DNA of 46,994 bases from Legionellaceae bacterium. Lineage in GTDB: Bacteria > Pseudomonadota > Gammaproteobacteria > CBCSKA01. The notes beneath the pieces are model-generated. The model worked only from the letters and a program-made list of their open reading frames with translations. It was not told the DNA's origin and did not search any database. Positions within the stretch are counted from its first letter, which is position 1, and each line of letters begins with the position of its first letter. Position numbers and translations under genes: made by a program. The stretch lies in assembly GCA_965140885.1 (NCBI GenBank), contig CBCSKA010000003.1, positions 1-46,994 of the forward strand, in the 5' to 3' direction. Positions 3,479-9,359 of the stretch are shown piece after piece.

Positions 3479-4566
3479 ATGACCTATTCAATTGATTTTA
3501 GAAGACATGTATTAACCATTAAAGCGGAAGAGAATTTAAGTTTTGCAGAAACCTCATTACGATTTAAGATAGGCAAATCAAGCCTTGTGCGTTGGAGCAC
3601 ATGTCTTGGGCCTAAAATAAAGCGTGATAAACCTGCAACTAAAATTAATATGGCGTTATTGAAGCAGGATATACAGAGCTATACCGATAGTTATTATCAT
3701 GAACGAGCCCAACGTTTAGGCGTTAGTAAAACGGGAATTTATTGGGCAATAAAATGTATGGGTATCAGCTATAAAAAAAACGCTACAGCATCCCAAAGCC
3801 GACGCCGAACGGCGGTTATTAATTCAACAGAATTTAACGAATGATAAGTCTTCTAATCGTAAGATAATTTACCTGGATGAAAGTGTCTTTGCTCATGACA
3901 TGCCCCGTACCCATGGCTATTCTGCCAAGGGGAAACGGTGTTATGGCAAACATAACTGGAGTGCACGTGGCCGAACAAGTGTTATTGGCGCGTTACAGGG
4001 AAATACCTTCAACACTCAGTTTGTTTGATGGAATGATTAATGGAGATATTTTTGAAGGCTGGCTAGAACAAGATTTGATCCCGAAATTGCCAGAACGCAG
4101 TGTGGTGATTATGGATAAGGCAGCTTTTCATAAAAGACCCGCAACTCAAACACTACTCGACAAAGCAGGACATACCTTAATGTTTCTGCCTCCTTATTCC
4201 CCTGTTCTTAATCCTATTTAACATACGATAGTGTCTCCATTTTTGAGACCCCTTTTGGGACATCCAAGTCCCCAAAAGGGACAAAAATTGTCGACAAGTA
4301 TGCCTGCGGCAGCCCTGGCCGTCCTGCGTACGCTCGTTATGACACGACTAGGTGTCATAACTTCACTTCCACAAATGACTTGTCGACCGTTTTGTGGGCC
4401 TTATATTTTGCCTTCGGCAAAACATCCGGCACTACGGTCTACCAGGGACTATCGGCCTCGCTCCTTCGTCGCTTCCTTGGCCGACAGCGAATGGGCACAA
4501 GCTAAAGCAATTCGAAAACAACAACACCGTTCTATTTATGATCTATTTAAATACCATTGCCCGTAA
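3479..4566 (+). pseudogene. IS630 transposase pseudogene
   Basis: HTH ORF MTYSIDFR...; A8 slippery run at 3773-3780; YLDES and MDKAAFH motifs; an extra frameshift near 4005; LNPI* where the catalytic Glu codon is TAA (4219-4221); insertion at 4226-4489; then WAQAKAIRK. Confidence 0.9.
4226..4489 (-). mobile_element. 264-bp structured non-autonomous element, copy A1
   Basis: Reverse complement of 9016-9279 with 1 mismatch. Removing it restores cat aaa tgg (H-K-W) of the IS630 transposase. Confidence 0.88.
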
Positions 4567-4612
4567 TCAATTTATAAGGAATTAGCTATAATCAATAAAA
4601 GGATGTTTTCCC

Positions 4613-5020: not shown

Positions 5021-5940
5021 TAGTGTTTTGATTTCTAAATGATTGATTGAAAGCAATGGTCAATAGCTCCAGCAAGAGTAGTAAATTGGGATATTATTTT
5101 CTTTATCTTTGCTTTTAGGTTAGCCCAGAACTTTTCAATAGGATTAAAATCTGGCGAATAAGGAGGAAGAAATAACAAGTGACATTGAGCGTTGGTTATT
5201 AATGTTTTAGTGCGCTCAGATTTATGAAACGCAGCATTGTCCATAATAATCGTGTAGCCAGGGCCTAAAGTTGGCAGTAGGAATGAGTCCAACCAGAAAT
5301 TAAAAAGATTAGTATCACACGTCCCCTGATAGCACAAAGGCGCGATAACGTTGTTATTGTTCAAACCAGCAATGAAGCTTTCCCTCGCAAAGCGCCTTCC
5401 CGAGACTTCACCCGCAACAGGTTGACCTCGTTTACCCCAGCCGTATTCTCGGGAGATAAAGCTATCAATGCCAGACTCATCAATATATACGCACTTTTCA
5501 TCACTGTATTTTAAACGCTCTACTAGGAACAGCTGACGCTTTTCTTCACTTCGTTCCGAATAGAGCGAGGTCTTTTTTTTCGTGAAATCTTAAGTCGAGA
5601 CAATGCTCGCCACACCCCAGATTCAGTCACTCCAAAATGAGCCGCTATTTCGCTTAAATAAGCATCTGGATGATTTGCCACATATAACTGAAGTAATTCA
5701 TCTTTCAGCTTATAGGGTAAATTTGCCCTTACAGTAGCAGAAACAGTTCCTAACTCTTCTTGCCTCGTTCTCCATCTTTGTATCGACGAGCGACTTACTT
5801 TAAAGAGTTCACAGGCAGATTTAATCAATCCTCCTGAGTTGATGTAGTCTAATACTAGTTTTCTTATATCTGTTGAATGACTCATAATAAATTTTATGAG
5901 TATATCACAATATGTAAGTCATTTTAAAATCAAATTACTA
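5021..5940 (-). mobile_element. IS630-family element, apparently intact (920 bp)
   Basis: Imperfect terminal inverted repeats tagtgttttgatttctaaatga / tcattttaaaatcaaattacta; TA duplication at 5019-5020 and 5941-5942. Confidence 0.93.
5035..5885 (-). CDS. IS630 transposase (two ORFs joined by -1 frameshift)
   Basis: HTH ORF 5523-5885; A8G slippery site at ~5572-5580; the -1 frame is open through YIDESG...IMDNAAFHK...PYSPDFNPIE (complete DDE). Confidence 0.9.
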
Positions 5941-6393
5941 TAACGGAGAAGAAGCCCTTCAAAAATTTGATTCAAGTTATGATTTTATCTTAATGGATGT
6001 CGGTTTGCCCGATATGGACGGGATAGAAGTGGCGCGATGTATCCGCGAAAAAGAATTATCCCTGAATTCCCATGTCATTATTATTGCGGCAACGGCATTT
6101 GGGGATACAGTGTATGAGTCTTGTATAGCAGCAGGAATGGATGATTTTTTAACAAAACCACTTTTTGAAAAAGAGCTAGAAGCAGTACTCAATAAATACC
6201 GATAAATAAACGCTAAAAATGAGTTTAATAATGAATAATACAATAAATACACAAAAATGCCGTCAATATCTTGAAAAAGCAAAAACCTAATTTAGTAATC
6301 AGCCTTATTACAATAAGAGTTTGCTTGTTTTATTAAAGAAGTCAACGAAACTCAAAAGCAGAAAGGACAAATTAGCGTATTAGCGTAACTTAA

Positions 6394-6459
6394 AAAAATA
6401 AAACCCCTGTTTTAATTTATCTTGTAAACGGTGTGCGATTACAAGGCGTCATTATGTAA
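6394..6459 (+). pseudogene. hfq: hfq-like fragment (Sm1 motif)
   Basis: Translates KNKTPVLIYLVNGVRLQGVIM*, matching the Hfq motif (VPVSIYLVNGIKLQG). Flanked by stops. Confidence 0.6.
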
Positions 6460-6540
6460 GCACCATATATATATATTTTTAGCATAAGTTTTGGCAAAGG
6501 GTTTTATCAAAATAGCTTTTTAATGATTTTACTCTTTGCC

Positions 6541-6819
6541 TGCTGGAACACAAGGAAGCGAAGCGAGTGTGACAGCCCTCGCATCATCTGTAGGGCCGTA
6601 TGTTTTGTCGAGGTCTATGCGTTAGCATAGGCAAAGACAAAATAGAAGGCATACCGATACAGATAGAAAGTCACTGTGGTAGTTGTGTTGAACGATAAGT
6701 TCAACGCAACGAACGCAGGACTGGTGCGAGCCGCCGAAGGCACACTAGTCGCTAATTTTTTGCTCCTGAGGGGGACTTGGATGTCCCGTCAGGTTTCGTA
6801 AAAAATAGCGACTCTATCG
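6541..6819 (+). mobile_element. 279-bp divergent copy (B) of the structured element
   Basis: Shares blocks CAAGGAAGCGA, ATGTTTTG, CAAAATA.AAGGC, AAGTCA, ACGCAGGAC, GGGGACTTGGATGTCCC and terminal CTATCG with 9016-9279, in the same order. Confidence 0.82.
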
Positions 6820-6868
6820 AACTCTATTTAATTTTATATAAAAAATAGAAATTTGATTTTACTCTCGA

Positions 6869-7372
6869 TTAGGGACGCGGAGAAGCTTCTTCATAAAATG
6901 GTGCTGTTGGTTCTTGGCAATTATCTTTTGTATTATTTGTAGAATTAGAGTTATGAAAGAATTGTATCGATGAATTTTCAGTGTAATTTGGATTTTGAGA
7001 ATATTTGTTTTTTTCATATGGTACATTCACAAATTGATCCAAGGAAAAAATTTCTTTTATTTTTTTATTTTCTTCTAATATTTCATTTGTATATGTTTGA
7101 TGATTAACAATTACATCATTATTTAAGTCAATAACTTCACCTAAAATATTTGCTATGTCATTTTTTGTGAAAAATTCATTATTAGATAATAAATTTTTAA
7201 TATTTTCTATTACATTTTTAATATCTTCTATATTAGCATAAAACAAAGATTCTAAATTATTTTCATTCGTTGTGATAACATTATTAACTGTAGCTAGATT
7301 TTCTTTATTTAAACTAACATTTTCATTTTTAGATAAAGTTTTAGTATAAGTTTGAGGCATTGGAATTAGCAT
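6869..7372 (-). CDS. Hypothetical Asn-rich protein
   Basis: 167-aa ORF, aagga upstream, no recognised motif. Confidence 0.6.
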   Translation of the reverse strand: MLIPMPQTYTKTLSKNENVSLNKENLATVNNVITTNENNLESLFYANIEDIKNVIENIKNLLSNNEFFTKNDIANILGEVIDLNNDVIVNHQTYTNEILEENKKIKEIFSLDQFVNVPYEKNKYSQNPNYTENSSIQFFHNSNSTNNTKDNCQEPTAPFYEEASPRP

Positions 7373-8630: not shown

Positions 8631-9015
8631 TTTTTATCTTCCTTTTTTTTTGAATTTAGATTTTTACTATTTATTTTTTTAATTAATAAACAACAAATAG
8701 AAAGGAAAAAAAATAATTACTGCCAAAAAGAAATAGAGTCTATTTCTAAAAACTCCAAATAGCACATTGTCCTTATGTAACTATTTGTTTGAGTGAGTAA
8801 ACAGAGATAATCCTTATCATCTGTCTAGCAGTTTATTTAATTTTTATCCTTAACATCATCCTTAATGTTTGCTGCTTATAAGTTAAGTATGTAATTGATT
8901 AATTTATTTACCAGGGGGTTTTTATTCTTAAATTTGTAAGATAATAGCTATTATGTTGATACCTGGAAATTTTATGAAAATTTAATTAACAAGAGAGGGG
9001 GGGTAGGCATTCACA

Positions 9016-9279
9016 CGCTGTCGGCCAAGGAAGCGACGAAGGAGCGAGGCCGATAGTCCCTGGTAGACCGTAGTGCCGGATGTTTTGCCGAAGGCAAAAT
9101 ATAAGGCCCACAAAACGGTCGACAAGTCATTTGTGGAAGTGAAGTTATGACACCTAGTCGTGTCATAACGAGCGTACGCAGGACGGCCAGGGCTGCCGCA
9201 GGCATACTTGTCGACAATTTTTGTCCCTTTTGGGGACTTGGATGTCCCAAAAGGGGTCTCAAAAATGGCGACACTATCG
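9016..9279 (+). mobile_element. 264-bp structured non-autonomous element, copy A2
   Basis: GC-rich island in AT-rich intergenic DNA; 263/264 identical to the reverse complement of 4226-4489. Confidence 0.88.
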
Positions 9280-9359
9280 TTTTTATGAAAAGGAAAATTA
9301 TTAATAGCATAGGGGTGACTTAGCTATTTTTCCATTACCTATTATTTAATAGAATATCC

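What the first reader, a model, noticed from the sequence alone, without database searches (positions are those of the whole stretch)
6541..6819. Compensatory covariation across nearly every stem of the divergent copy
Seen, copy A vs copy B. 5' stem: ctgtcggcc/ggccgatag vs gctg..acac/gtgt..cagc. Long-range stem: ccctggt/gccaggg vs ctcgcatca/tggtgcgag. Next stem: gaccgt/acggtc vs atctgta/tacagat. Then tgttttgcc/ggcaaaata vs tgttttgtc/gacaaaata, where B adds an extra hairpin gtctatgc/gcataggc in the loop. Middle hairpin: gttatgacac/gtgtcataac vs gttgtgttgaac/gttcaacgcaac. 3' arm: tgtcg/cgaca and cctttt/aaaagg vs agtcgcta/tagcgact and cctga/tcagg, around the invariant gggac-ttggat-gtccc. Inference: structure rather than sequence is under selection, so the fold is functional.
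Basis: seen in the sequence. Interest (0 to 1): 0.82.

Follow-up and report, generated by a model that had tools for sequence, protein, structure and literature searches.

The report
Structured transposase-less insertion element family
The flagged stretch is one copy of a small, gene-less jumping DNA element whose single strand folds into a conserved shape and which always lands three bases after a C, the cutting signature of the cell's own topoisomerase I, hinting at a new way for DNA to move.

Summary
Window 6542-6819 (+) is the divergent "B" copy of a dispersed, ORF-less repeat. Two "A" copies lie at 9016-9279 (+) and 4489-4226 (-). On 17 homologues from different gammaproteobacteria, 43 of 71 pairs show changes on both sides, beyond every control. 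Rfam has no match. The assembly (1.62 Mb) holds 76-80 A-type junctions. Insertions are exact and make no target duplication: 3 of 3 sites with empty paralogues. The base 4 nt upstream of the element is C in 76/76 junctions here, in 30/30 in a second genome, and in 15/17 loci of other species, always in a G-poor, A/T-rich patch. This matches the published in vivo cleavage motif of E. coli topoisomerase I (TCNTT|A/T). The folded strand lies on the locally G-rich strand in 38/48 copies here and 32/41 elsewhere, as in single-strand transposons. No transposase family occurs in all high-copy genomes. Best reading: a new family of strand-specific elements that move as single strands. The cutting enzyme is possibly host topoisomerase I; this is inferred, and the 3' end of the A/B lineage does not fit it.

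The parts
6542..6819 (+). B-type copy of the element (the finding); base 6541 is flank
   Evidence: Four full B copies are in the assembly (C3:6541, C16:1185, C16:5740, C20:36530), plus contig-end pieces. The same sequence occurs at 99-100% identity in other flanks in runs X2 and X3.
9016..9279 (+). A-type copy (A2), 264 nt, 5' CGCTG ... CTATCG 3'
4226..4489 (-). A-type copy (A1), inserted antisense into the 3' end of an IS630-like transposase gene
   Evidence: Four uninterrupted paralogues of the IS end (C25, C120, C126, C150) have the two flanks directly adjacent.
9009..9015 (+). Target site of A2: ATTCACA, with C at -4 (base 9012)
4490..4496 (-). Target site of A1, read on the minus strand: GCCCATT, with C at -4 (base 4493)
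6535..6541 (+). Left flank of the B copy (TTTGCCT); this copy is the one B-type exception, with G at -4 and C at -3 and -2
   Evidence: The other 5 of 6 B-type junctions have C at -4.
6772..6787 (+). Invariant hairpin GGGAC-TTGGAT-GTCCC capping the 3' arm; its stem never varies in the 17 homologues
   Evidence: columns 288-290 with 302-304 and 293 with 300 are identical in 17/17.
6814..6819 (+). Unpaired 3' tail CTATCG. The right junction has A, not C, at -4, unlike most other lineages

Best explanation
Window 6542-6819 is one copy of a family of 130-300-nt mobile elements that carry no gene and no terminal inverted repeats.

Shown:
- The element is dispersed at about 80 or more copies in this 1.6-Mb genome and at 40 or more in a second genome. 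It also occurs in Legionella, Sedimenticola, Methylomarinum, clam and tubeworm symbionts and other gammaproteobacterial MAGs.
- It inserts exactly, with no target duplication.
- It inserts 3 nt downstream of a C in a G-poor, A/T-rich patch (T-C-N-W-T | element | T/A).
- One strand carries a five-helix fold kept by compensatory changes.
- That strand lies preferentially on the G-rich strand of the chromosome.

Inferred:
- The element moves as a single DNA strand at replication forks (peel-and-paste geometry, as in IS200/IS605).
- The fold is the substrate that holds the strand out of the duplex and presents its two unpaired ends.
- Cutting and joining are done by an enzyme that links to the 5' phosphate and demands C at -4. 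This is the known specificity of bacterial type IA topoisomerase I. A host enzyme would explain why no transposase travels with the element.

My odds: mobile element 0.95; single-strand route 0.7; topoisomerase I as the enzyme 0.35.
For: - **Copy number.** There are 52 full-length hits, 59 contig-end pieces and 8 internal pieces. There are 76 exact A-type 5' junctions and 80 3' junctions. Genome G041 gives 40 scored of 93 candidates.
- **Exact insertion.** For 3 of 3 copies that have paralogous empty sites, the two flanks are adjacent bases in the empty copy (first seen).
- **Target.** C is at -4 in 76/76 junctions in G000 (16% C genome), in 30/30 distinct junctions in G041, in 15/17 loci of other species and in 5/6 B-type junctions. 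G is depleted at -7..-1. Position -5 is T39/A34 of 76 here and T19 of 30 in G041. Position -1 is T46 of 76. Position +1 is T45/A25 of 80.
- **Match to topoisomerase I.** The E. coli enzyme's in vivo motif is TCNTTA/T, and a C 4 nt upstream of the cut is strictly required (bioRxiv 10.1101/2021.10.26.465782, sections 29 and 37 read). The C at -4 preference is stated for bacterial topoisomerase I but not topoisomerase III (PMC11999072, passages read).
- **Element's own 3' end.** In most lineages it is also CNNN| (CTTG, CTTA, CTGC, CCTG).
- **Strand bias.** The folded strand lies on the locally G-rich strand in 38/48 full copies (p 6e-5) and in 32/41 copies in other genomes (p 4e-4; G041 9/10). 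IS200/IS605 single-strand transposons show this orientation rule (PMC5371812, passages read).
- **Fold.**
- **No recurring gene.** Among 307 ORFs within 3 kb of copies in other genomes, only an IS110 transposase that interrupts 3 copies recurs in 3 or more genomes. Across five other genomes that hold the element (four seen in more than one copy), Y1_Tnp is in 3/5, RVT_1 in 4/5 and IS110 in 1/5.
- **No transcription signals.** There is no promoter or terminator above chance and no orientation bias to neighbouring genes (27 same/19 opposite on the 5' side, 21/27 on the 3' side).
Against: - In the A/B lineage (this window) and its nearest relatives the 3' end is CTATCG| or CTATCA|. The right junction therefore has A, not C, at -4, yet this lineage is the most active one. 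A simple model with two topoisomerase cuts does not explain it.
- No biochemical or read-level evidence for excision, circles or topoisomerase involvement was obtained.
- Many conserved G.U-type pairs and GNRA-like loops are as typical of RNA as of DNA. A 196-nt contig of an RNA library covers 6561-6756.
- The genomes searched for transposases are drafts, so a dedicated enzyme may be unassembled or of an unknown family.
- The GC-skew test uses local skew as a proxy for replication direction, not mapped origins.
- The covariation structure was derived from the same sequences on which it was tested.
Confidence: 0.55

Rival explanations
1. A non-autonomous relative of the IS200/IS605 or REPIN type. 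A dedicated, trans-acting HUH-type (or still unknown) single-strand transposase encoded elsewhere in the genome recognises the folded ends, and happens to need a C at -4 of its target.
For: The geometry is the same as IS200/IS605. There are no inverted repeats and no duplication, the target motif lies on the 5' side, the ends are hairpins, and there is a replication-strand bias. G000 has one Y1_Tnp gene at C25:253-612.
Against: Y1_Tnp was not found in 2 of 5 other genomes that hold the element (G041 and G042). These are drafts, so the absence is weak evidence. The hairpins flanking the C25 gene do not resemble the element's ends (by eye). Known family members use a fully specified tetra- or pentanucleotide target that co-varies with the element. 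Here the same lone C in a T-rich patch is used by sub-families with different sequences in different hosts. No protein gene recurs near copies.
Confidence: 0.3
2. A structured non-coding RNA gene family. The RNA has a cellular or selfish function, and copies spread through an RNA intermediate using the group II intron reverse transcriptases present in the genome.
For: The sense strand is much more stable than the antisense strand, with many G.U pairs. An RNA-library contig covers the element's interior. Group II intron reverse transcriptases occur in G000 (C61, C105) and in 4 of 5 other genomes. Copies sit inside a group II intron. The four old internal fragments inspected are all 5'-truncated with their 3' ends kept.
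Against: There is no promoter or terminator and no orientation bias to genes. No reverse transcriptase was found in the Solemya symbiont genome, which has several copies. The exact, duplication-free junctions with a fixed C at -4 are not what target-primed reverse transcription gives. The element has no ribozyme core that could reverse-splice. RNA contigs cannot show strand or ends and may come from DNA carry-over.
Confidence: 0.1
3. A hitch-hiker on IS110-family transposases, like the ssr9 module of ISPpu9. The fold would be a bridge/seek-RNA-like module that uses an IS110 recombinase supplied in trans.
For: IS110-family transposase genes, 46-48% identical to each other, lie within copies of the element in three genomes (L125, L089, L113). 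There is published precedent for a small-RNA module propagated by an IS110 transposase (PMC12288879, abstract read).
Against: The three IS sit at three different positions (about model positions 50, 130 and 222) and in both orientations. The one in L125 has its own inverted sub-terminal repeats, so these are insertions into the element. IS110 was found in only 1 of 5 other genomes that hold the element, and G000 has only fragments. IS110 elements choose long specific targets, not CNNN.
Confidence: 0.05

Closest known systems
IS200/IS605 single-strand ('peel and paste') transposons and their ORF-less derivatives (PATEs)
   Same: Strand-specific. No terminal inverted repeats and no target duplication. 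The target motif lies immediately 5' of the left end. The ends are folded. Orientation follows the replication direction.
   Different: The target is a lone C at -4, not a specified tetra- or pentanucleotide. The fold spans the whole element in five helices rather than two sub-terminal hairpins. No TnpA was found in 2 of 5 carrier genomes searched. No autonomous version was found.
Cleavage sites of bacterial type IA topoisomerase I
   Same: C exactly 4 nt 5' of the break. An A/T-rich, G-poor, asymmetric context (TCNTT|A/T). A single-stranded substrate. The enzyme links to the 5' phosphate, so the upstream 3'-OH is free to be joined to an incoming 5' end (the polarity is recalled textbook knowledge).
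   Different: Topoisomerase I is not known to move any element. The 3' end of the A/B lineage lacks the C at -4.
REP/REPIN elements mobilised by RAYT
   Same: High-copy, intergenic, hairpin-forming, ORF-less elements served by a single-copy enzyme in trans.
   Different: REPs are 20-40-bp palindromes with GTAG or CGTC tags. This element is 130-300 nt, asymmetric and multi-helix, and has no such tag.
ssr9 module of ISPpu9 (IS110 family; PMC12288879)
   Same: A small structured non-coding module that multiplies as a selfish unit without its own transposase.
   Different: ssr9 shares end boxes with its IS and goes to REP targets. Here the IS110 copies are insertions into the element and the target is CNNN.
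HEARO / omega-RNA elements (IscB, TnpB)
   Same: Multi-copy, about 200-300 nt, highly structured, linked to the single-strand transposon world.
   Different: No Rfam match. No TnpB domain in G000. No adjoining nuclease ORF in any locus.
MITEs such as QMITE1/2 of Coxiella (PMC5896051)
   Same: Small, non-autonomous, about 50 or more copies. Targets for IS110/IS1111 insertion.
   Different: MITEs have terminal inverted repeats and direct repeats. This element has neither.

Membership tests
MITE (DDE-transposon derived) | Terminal inverted repeats | tested here: not met
   The ends are 5' CGCTGTCGG... and ...GACACTATCG 3', which are not inverted copies of each other.
MITE (DDE-transposon derived) | Target-site duplication | tested here: not met
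   In 3 of 3 filled/empty comparisons the flanks are adjacent bases in the empty site.
IS200/IS605-type ORF-less element (PATE) | No inverted repeats, no duplication, strand-specific folded ends | tested here: met
IS200/IS605-type ORF-less element (PATE) | Insertion immediately 3' of a specified tetra- or pentanucleotide | tested here: not met
   Only the C at -4 is fixed (76/76 and 30/30); positions -3 to -1 vary.
IS200/IS605-type ORF-less element (PATE) | Y1 (HUH) transposase in the same genome | tested here: inconclusive
   One copy in G000. Found in 3 of 5 other carrier genomes and not in G041 or G042. All are draft assemblies.
IS200/IS605-type ORF-less element (PATE) | Orientation bias with replication | tested here: met
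   38/48 and 32/41 copies lie on the G-rich strand; local GC skew was used as the proxy.
REP/REPIN | 20-40-bp palindromic unit with a GTAG or CGTC tag | tested here: not met
   The element is 264-279 nt with an asymmetric multi-helix fold. The definition is taken from the abstract of PMC3733652 in the search listing.
HEARO / omega RNA | Match to the Rfam model; adjoining IscB or TnpB | tested here: not met
   No Rfam hit at the gathering score or at E<=10 on the window region, nor at E<=0.1 in 7 loci from other genomes. PF07282 is absent from G000. The RRXRR search was uninformative because its control rang nowhere.
Group II intron or intron fragment | GUGYG 5' end, domain V/VI, D1-D4 models | tested here: not met
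   The element itself gives no Rfam intron match. In C109 and C61 it lies inside an intron that has its own GTGCG start and its own D5/D6. Homologues elsewhere have no intron flanks.
IS110 bridge-RNA or ssr9-like module | Constant position next to an IS110 transposase gene; long specific target | tested here: not met
   Three positions and both orientations. IS110 in 1 of 5 carrier genomes. Degenerate target.
Substrate of type IA topoisomerase I (works like; not a family membership) | C at -4 of the break, in an A/T-rich, G-poor patch, with T at -1 and A/T at +1 | tested here: met
   Left junctions. Published motif. Right junctions: met in most lineages but not in the A/B lineage.
Substrate of type IA topoisomerase I (works like; not a family membership) | Actual cleavage and strand transfer by the enzyme | not testable with these tools
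   Needs biochemistry.

The most novel reading that the evidence does not exclude
A class of transposable element that encodes nothing and borrows the host's essential type IA topoisomerase I as its transposase. The conserved single-strand fold extrudes the element from the lagging-strand template and presents a CNNN| site at each junction. Two topoisomerase cuts, each leaving a 5'-phosphotyrosine, and crossed religation then excise a single-stranded circle and paste it into any other CNNN| site. This would be the first mobile DNA known to be driven by a topoisomerase. It would also explain the family's spread across distant gammaproteobacteria without a companion gene.
Probability: 0.3. Interest if true: 0.93.

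Novelty: new variant of a known kind. Interest (0 to 1): 0.8.

Why it matters
A folded, gene-less element makes up about 1.3% of a small genome. That figure comes from 80 copies of 264 nt in 1.62 Mb. It breaks the assembly at about 60 contig ends. It recurs in Legionella, in chemosynthetic symbionts and in methanotrophs. It is in no RNA or mobile-element library that I could search. Its target rule (C at -4 in 106 of 106 junctions in two genomes) equals the cleavage rule of topoisomerase I. This makes a long-standing question directly testable: can a housekeeping topoisomerase act as a recombinase for selfish DNA in vivo? Even if a dedicated enzyme turns up, the family adds a new and unusually elaborate substrate to single-strand transposition. 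It also serves as a practical marker for assembly breaks and for IS110 landing sites.

Tried and rejected
- **Rfam.** There was no hit at the gathering score on the whole window. Only chance-level hits at E<=10 appeared on 6300-7000. There were none at E<=0.1 in 7 homologous loci.
- **Earlier findings of this scan.** Nothing was found by sequence.
- **Plasmid and phage collections.** There was no match in distant mode, with one query each.
- **Group II intron domain I.** I first suspected this because contig C61 starts with the last 74 nt of a copy, 92 nt before an intron RT gene. I rejected it. C109 shows the intron's own GTGCG start 172 nt upstream of a copy, at a normal ...TCGAA| target. 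Related introns (C105, G031) have unrelated sequence at that place. Homologues elsewhere have no intron flanks.
- **TnpB/IscB guide RNA.** There is no TnpB domain in G000. The RRXRR search was uninformative.
- **An ORF-carrying autonomous version.** The only split copies (L125, L089, L113) hold IS110-family insertions at three different places.
- **Coxiella QMITE1/2.** These have inverted and direct repeats, so they are not the same element.
- **Loop-loop pairing.** Pairing between CCAAG in the 5' hairpin loop and CUUGG in the invariant loop has no compensating change where the first reads CCAUG (by eye).
- **Antisense ORFs.** ORFs 4231-4566 and 9011-9310 overlap the A copies. Five of the 17 homologues have stops in all six frames, so the element is not coding.
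- **Alternative boundary registers.** I tried registers that would put C at -4 of the A/B right junction. All conflict with the empty sites.
- **Reads.** No contig joins the flanks across 6541-6819 in X1-X3. Contigs drop rare variants, so this says nothing about excision. The RNA-library contig over 6561-6756 cannot show strand, ends or true transcription.
- **Literature.** No paper was found describing the element, its invariant motif or a topoisomerase-driven transposon. The searches were made, over PMC open access and bioRxiv only.
- **Supplements.** Supplements of the cited papers were not consulted.

Full report
**What is at the coordinates**

About 0.01 occurrences are expected by chance. 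Around these lie two nearly identical "A" copies, 4489-4226 on the minus strand and 9016-9279 on the plus strand. The divergent "B" copy of the finding ends at 6819.

A and B are 63% identical over 250 aligned columns, yet each folds on its own into the same architecture. That architecture is:
- a 5' hairpin (P1);
- a long-range stem (P2) closing a central domain with two arms;
- a small hairpin;
- a long irregular 3' arm (P5) capped by GGGAC-TTGGAT-GTCCC, followed by a 5-6-nt unpaired tail.

RNA minimum free energy is -111.6 kcal/mol (z -6.7) for A and -126.3 (z -10.7) for B. The opposite strand of B is weaker both as RNA (-97) and as DNA (-51.9 against -63.1). The region holds no ORF of 60 aa or more. 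Promoter-like and terminator-like sites do not exceed chance.

**It is a high-copy dispersed repeat**

The window's own assembly is G000: 1.62 Mb, 158 contigs, 80% complete, 33% G+C. A profile search of it finds 119 pieces: 52 full-length, 59 cut by contig ends and 8 internal fragments. Exact-word counts give 76 A-type 5' junctions and 80 3' junctions. Of the 47 full A copies, 39 are 97-100% identical to A2.

B-type copies number four in full, plus end pieces and a further divergent copy at C11:1793. In the run that best holds the window, contigs made only of B sequence have word depths of 49-82, against 4.8-6.3 for the unique flanks. This suggests more B copies than were assembled, if they all belong to this organism.

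**Ends and insertion**

The 47 full A copies share sharp ends, 5' CGCTG... and ...CTATCG 3', and 39 of the 47 are 264 nt long. The two ends are not inverted repeats of each other.

Three copies have paralogous "empty" sites elsewhere in the genome:
- A1, in the end of an IS630-like element, has four empty paralogues.
- C4:8448-8186 has an empty site in C19.
- C4:10244-9979 has empty sites in C6 and C81.

In all three, the two flanks are directly adjacent bases in the empty copy. There is no duplication and no loss.

**Target rule**

The base four positions upstream of the element is C in 47/47 full A copies and in 76/76 A-type junctions counted by exact word. The genome is only 16% C. The counts at the other positions are:

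| Position | Counts |
|---|---|
| -7 to -5 | A or T in 68-73 of 76 |
| -7 to -1 | G in 0-7 of 76 per position |
| -1 | T46 / A19 |
| +1 (first base after the element) | T45 / A25 / C7 / G3 of 80 |

An independent genome gives the same rule. G041 is a Legionellaceae MAG with 39% G+C and a different sub-family with at least 40 copies. It has C at -4 in 30/30 distinct junctions, T at -5 in 19/30 and T at -1 in 19/30. Single loci of other species give C at -4 in 15/17. B-type copies start one base later (GCTG) and have C at -4 in 5/6. The window's own B copy is the exception.

**Distribution**

Many of those hits are chance matches of a 16-mer. A profile search confirmed true copies in:
- Legionella longbeachae and L. 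santicrucis;
- several Legionellaceae MAGs;
- the Solemya velesiana gill symbiont;
- a Candidatus Thiodiazotropha MAG;
- an Escarpia tubeworm endosymbiont;
- two Sedimenticola MAGs;
- a Methylomarinum chromosome;
- about ten other gammaproteobacterial MAGs.

Lengths run from about 130 nt (P1, P2 and P5 only) to about 300 nt. A deletion derivative of the short kind also exists in G000, at C157:1744-1649. Among 40 sampled genomes of the same class, only G031 has the element. G000's own lineage name was not determined.

I aligned 17 sequences: A, B, G031 and 14 loci from other genomes. RNAalifold alone recovers P2, the bases of P3 and P4 and the tip of P5, with 19 of 27 pairs showing changes on both sides. 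I then tested a 71-pair structure assembled from the per-sequence MFE folds. The result:

| Measure | Observed | Shuffled |
|---|---|---|
| Cells paired | 84.2% | 70.2% |
| Pairs with changes on both sides | 43 of 71 | 27.2 +/- 2.5 |
| Cells changed on both sides | 157 | 51 |
| Covariation score | 0.353 | 0.132 |

None of 500 shuffles reached any observed value. Sliding the partners by 1-3 columns gives scores of 0.07-0.11. Ten of the 12 helices have pairs with changes on both sides; helix 11 has none and helix 9 has one of three. The stem of the capping hairpin never varies.

G.U/U.G cells outnumber A.C/C.A cells by 98 to 34, so the folded strand is the one given. Two caveats apply. The structure was derived by folding that same strand of these same sequences. 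The alignment is a plain MAFFT alignment.

**Strand bias**

I masked all copies and measured the G-C skew of the flanks. The folded strand lies on the locally G-rich strand in 38 of 48 full copies within 20-kb windows (p 6e-5). The figures are 39/48 at 5 kb and 36/48 at 10 kb. In other genomes it is 32 of 41 (p 4e-4), with G041 at 9/10, and 21/30 using only 1.5-kb flanks in G041.

Orientation relative to neighbouring genes is near random: 27 same/19 opposite on the 5' side and 21/27 on the 3' side. By textbook knowledge the G-rich strand is normally the leading-strand sequence, which is also the template of the lagging strand. IS200/IS605 single-strand transposons show exactly this orientation rule (PMC5371812, passages read).

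**What moves it**

No recognisable transposase accompanies the element.
- G000 has no TnpB domain. It has one IS200-like Y1 gene whose flanking hairpins look unrelated. It has two group II intron RT genes and only fragments of IS110 genes.
- In five other carrier genomes, Y1_Tnp is found in 3, RVT_1 in 4 and IS110 in 1. All are drafts.
- Of 307 ORFs within 3 kb of copies in other genomes, the only protein family recurring in three or more genomes is an IS110-family transposase. It interrupts the element at three different positions and in both orientations. It is therefore an IS that targets the element, not its engine.

**The lead from the target**

A lone, obligatory C four bases upstream of the break is the published specificity of bacterial topoisomerase I. 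So are the A/T-rich and G-poor context, T before the break and A/T after it.
- In vivo Topo-Seq gives the motif TCNTTA/T. [quoted passage not shown]
- A second paper's introduction states that the C at -4 preference holds for bacterial topoisomerase I but not topoisomerase III (PMC11999072, passages read).

Type IA enzymes cut single strands and bind the 5' phosphate (recalled, textbook). This is the polarity needed to join the free 3'-OH of ...CNNN to an activated 5' end of the element, as HUH transposases do.

In most lineages the element's own 3' end is also CNNN|:
- CTTG in L. santicrucis, Solemya and O_S4;
- CTTA in the SRP167671 MAG;
- CTGC in 11 of 12 G041 copies;
- CCTG in one Solemya copy.

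Each such copy is then bracketed by two potential topoisomerase sites on the folded strand.

Against this reading, the A/B lineage of this window and the G031 and ND4 relatives end in CTATCG| or CTATCA|, with A at -4. None of the alternative boundary registers I tried agrees with the empty sites. This remains unexplained and is the main reason I keep the topoisomerase step at about one in three.

**RNA or DNA?**

For a folded DNA strand:
- the target motif of an enzyme that cuts single-stranded DNA;
- the replication-strand bias;
- exact insertion with no duplication;
- no promoter, no terminator and no bias towards neighbouring genes;
- GCGAAGC-type mini-hairpins in the P1 loop of many lineages, which I recall as exceptionally stable in DNA.

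For RNA:
- conserved G.U positions and GAAA loops;
- one RNA-library contig, which is weak evidence.

The two are not exclusive.

**Comparison with what is known**

The element behaves like an IS200/IS605-type single-strand element, but it fails that family's target rule and has no assured TnpA. It is not a MITE, a REP/REPIN, a HEARO/omega RNA, a group II intron piece or an IS110 RNA module (see membership tests). No Rfam family matches. I found no paper in the open-access library searched.

**Verdict**

- The feature is a new family of structured, gene-less, strand-specific insertion elements.
- The single-strand route is well supported.
- The identity of the enzyme is open. Host topoisomerase I is the most interesting candidate and is directly testable.

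Noticed in passing
window 3479-4221 (+) and 4490-4575: This is an IS630-like transposase gene split into two ORFs (3479-3844 and 3877-4221). Its 3' end is interrupted by copy A1. Ten or more related IS ends occur elsewhere in the assembly. The family name is judged by eye from the translation; no Pfam search was run.
   Followed up: partly
G000 contigs C109:248-1 (minus) and C61:1-1780 (loci L049, L044): A group II intron has its GTGCG start in C109, a 495-aa RT at C61:166-1653 and D5/D6 at C61:1704-1780. It carries a copy of the element 172 nt after its 5' end. A copy also ends 92 nt before the RT start codon. Either two copies, or one copy plus a deletion of about 330 nt of domains I-III, disrupt the intron. 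A short linking contig would fall below the assembly's 1-kb cut-off.
   Followed up: partly
loci L125:357-1839, L089:4110-2726, L113:2559-4036: IS110-family insertion sequences, with transposases 46-48% identical to each other, sit inside copies of the element in three different genomes. By eye, each lies next to an AGTC-containing conserved motif of the element. The element seems to be a preferred landing site for this IS lineage.
   Followed up: partly
window 5900-5950: Word depth here is 92.6 in run X1 against about 6 for the neighbouring unique sequence. Contigs of three runs diverge at 5942-5946. This marks the end of another repeat family that I did not identify.
   Followed up: no
window 5993-6205 (+): This 70-aa ORF reads like the C-terminal part of a response-regulator receiver domain, apparently truncated at its 5' side next to the repeat boundary at about 5943. 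This is by eye only, with no domain search.
   Followed up: no
G000 C64:1305-1151, C132:8658-8525, C132:11343-11267, C13:8087-8157: Four old, diverged fragments of the element all keep the 3' end and lack the 5' part. No internal fragment with the opposite polarity was seen. The sample is small, but the pattern would fit a process that starts at, or better preserves, the 3' end.
   Followed up: partly
G000 C157:1744-1649: This internal-deletion derivative joins P1 directly to the tip of P5 and is about 100 nt long. It resembles the natural short forms (130-175 nt) in the Solemya symbiont and a Legionellaceae MAG.
   Followed up: no
window 4231-4566 (+) and 9011-9310 (-): ORFs of 111 and 99 aa run antisense through the two A copies. 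They are not conserved in B or in several homologues, so they are artefacts that gene callers are likely to annotate.
   Followed up: yes
G000 C25:140-760: A single IS200-like element with a 144-aa Y1 transposase frame lies directly after an IS630-like end. It has similar hairpins on both sides (TCGCC-TTTA-GGCGA and ACCGCC-TTGA-GGCGGT).
   Followed up: no
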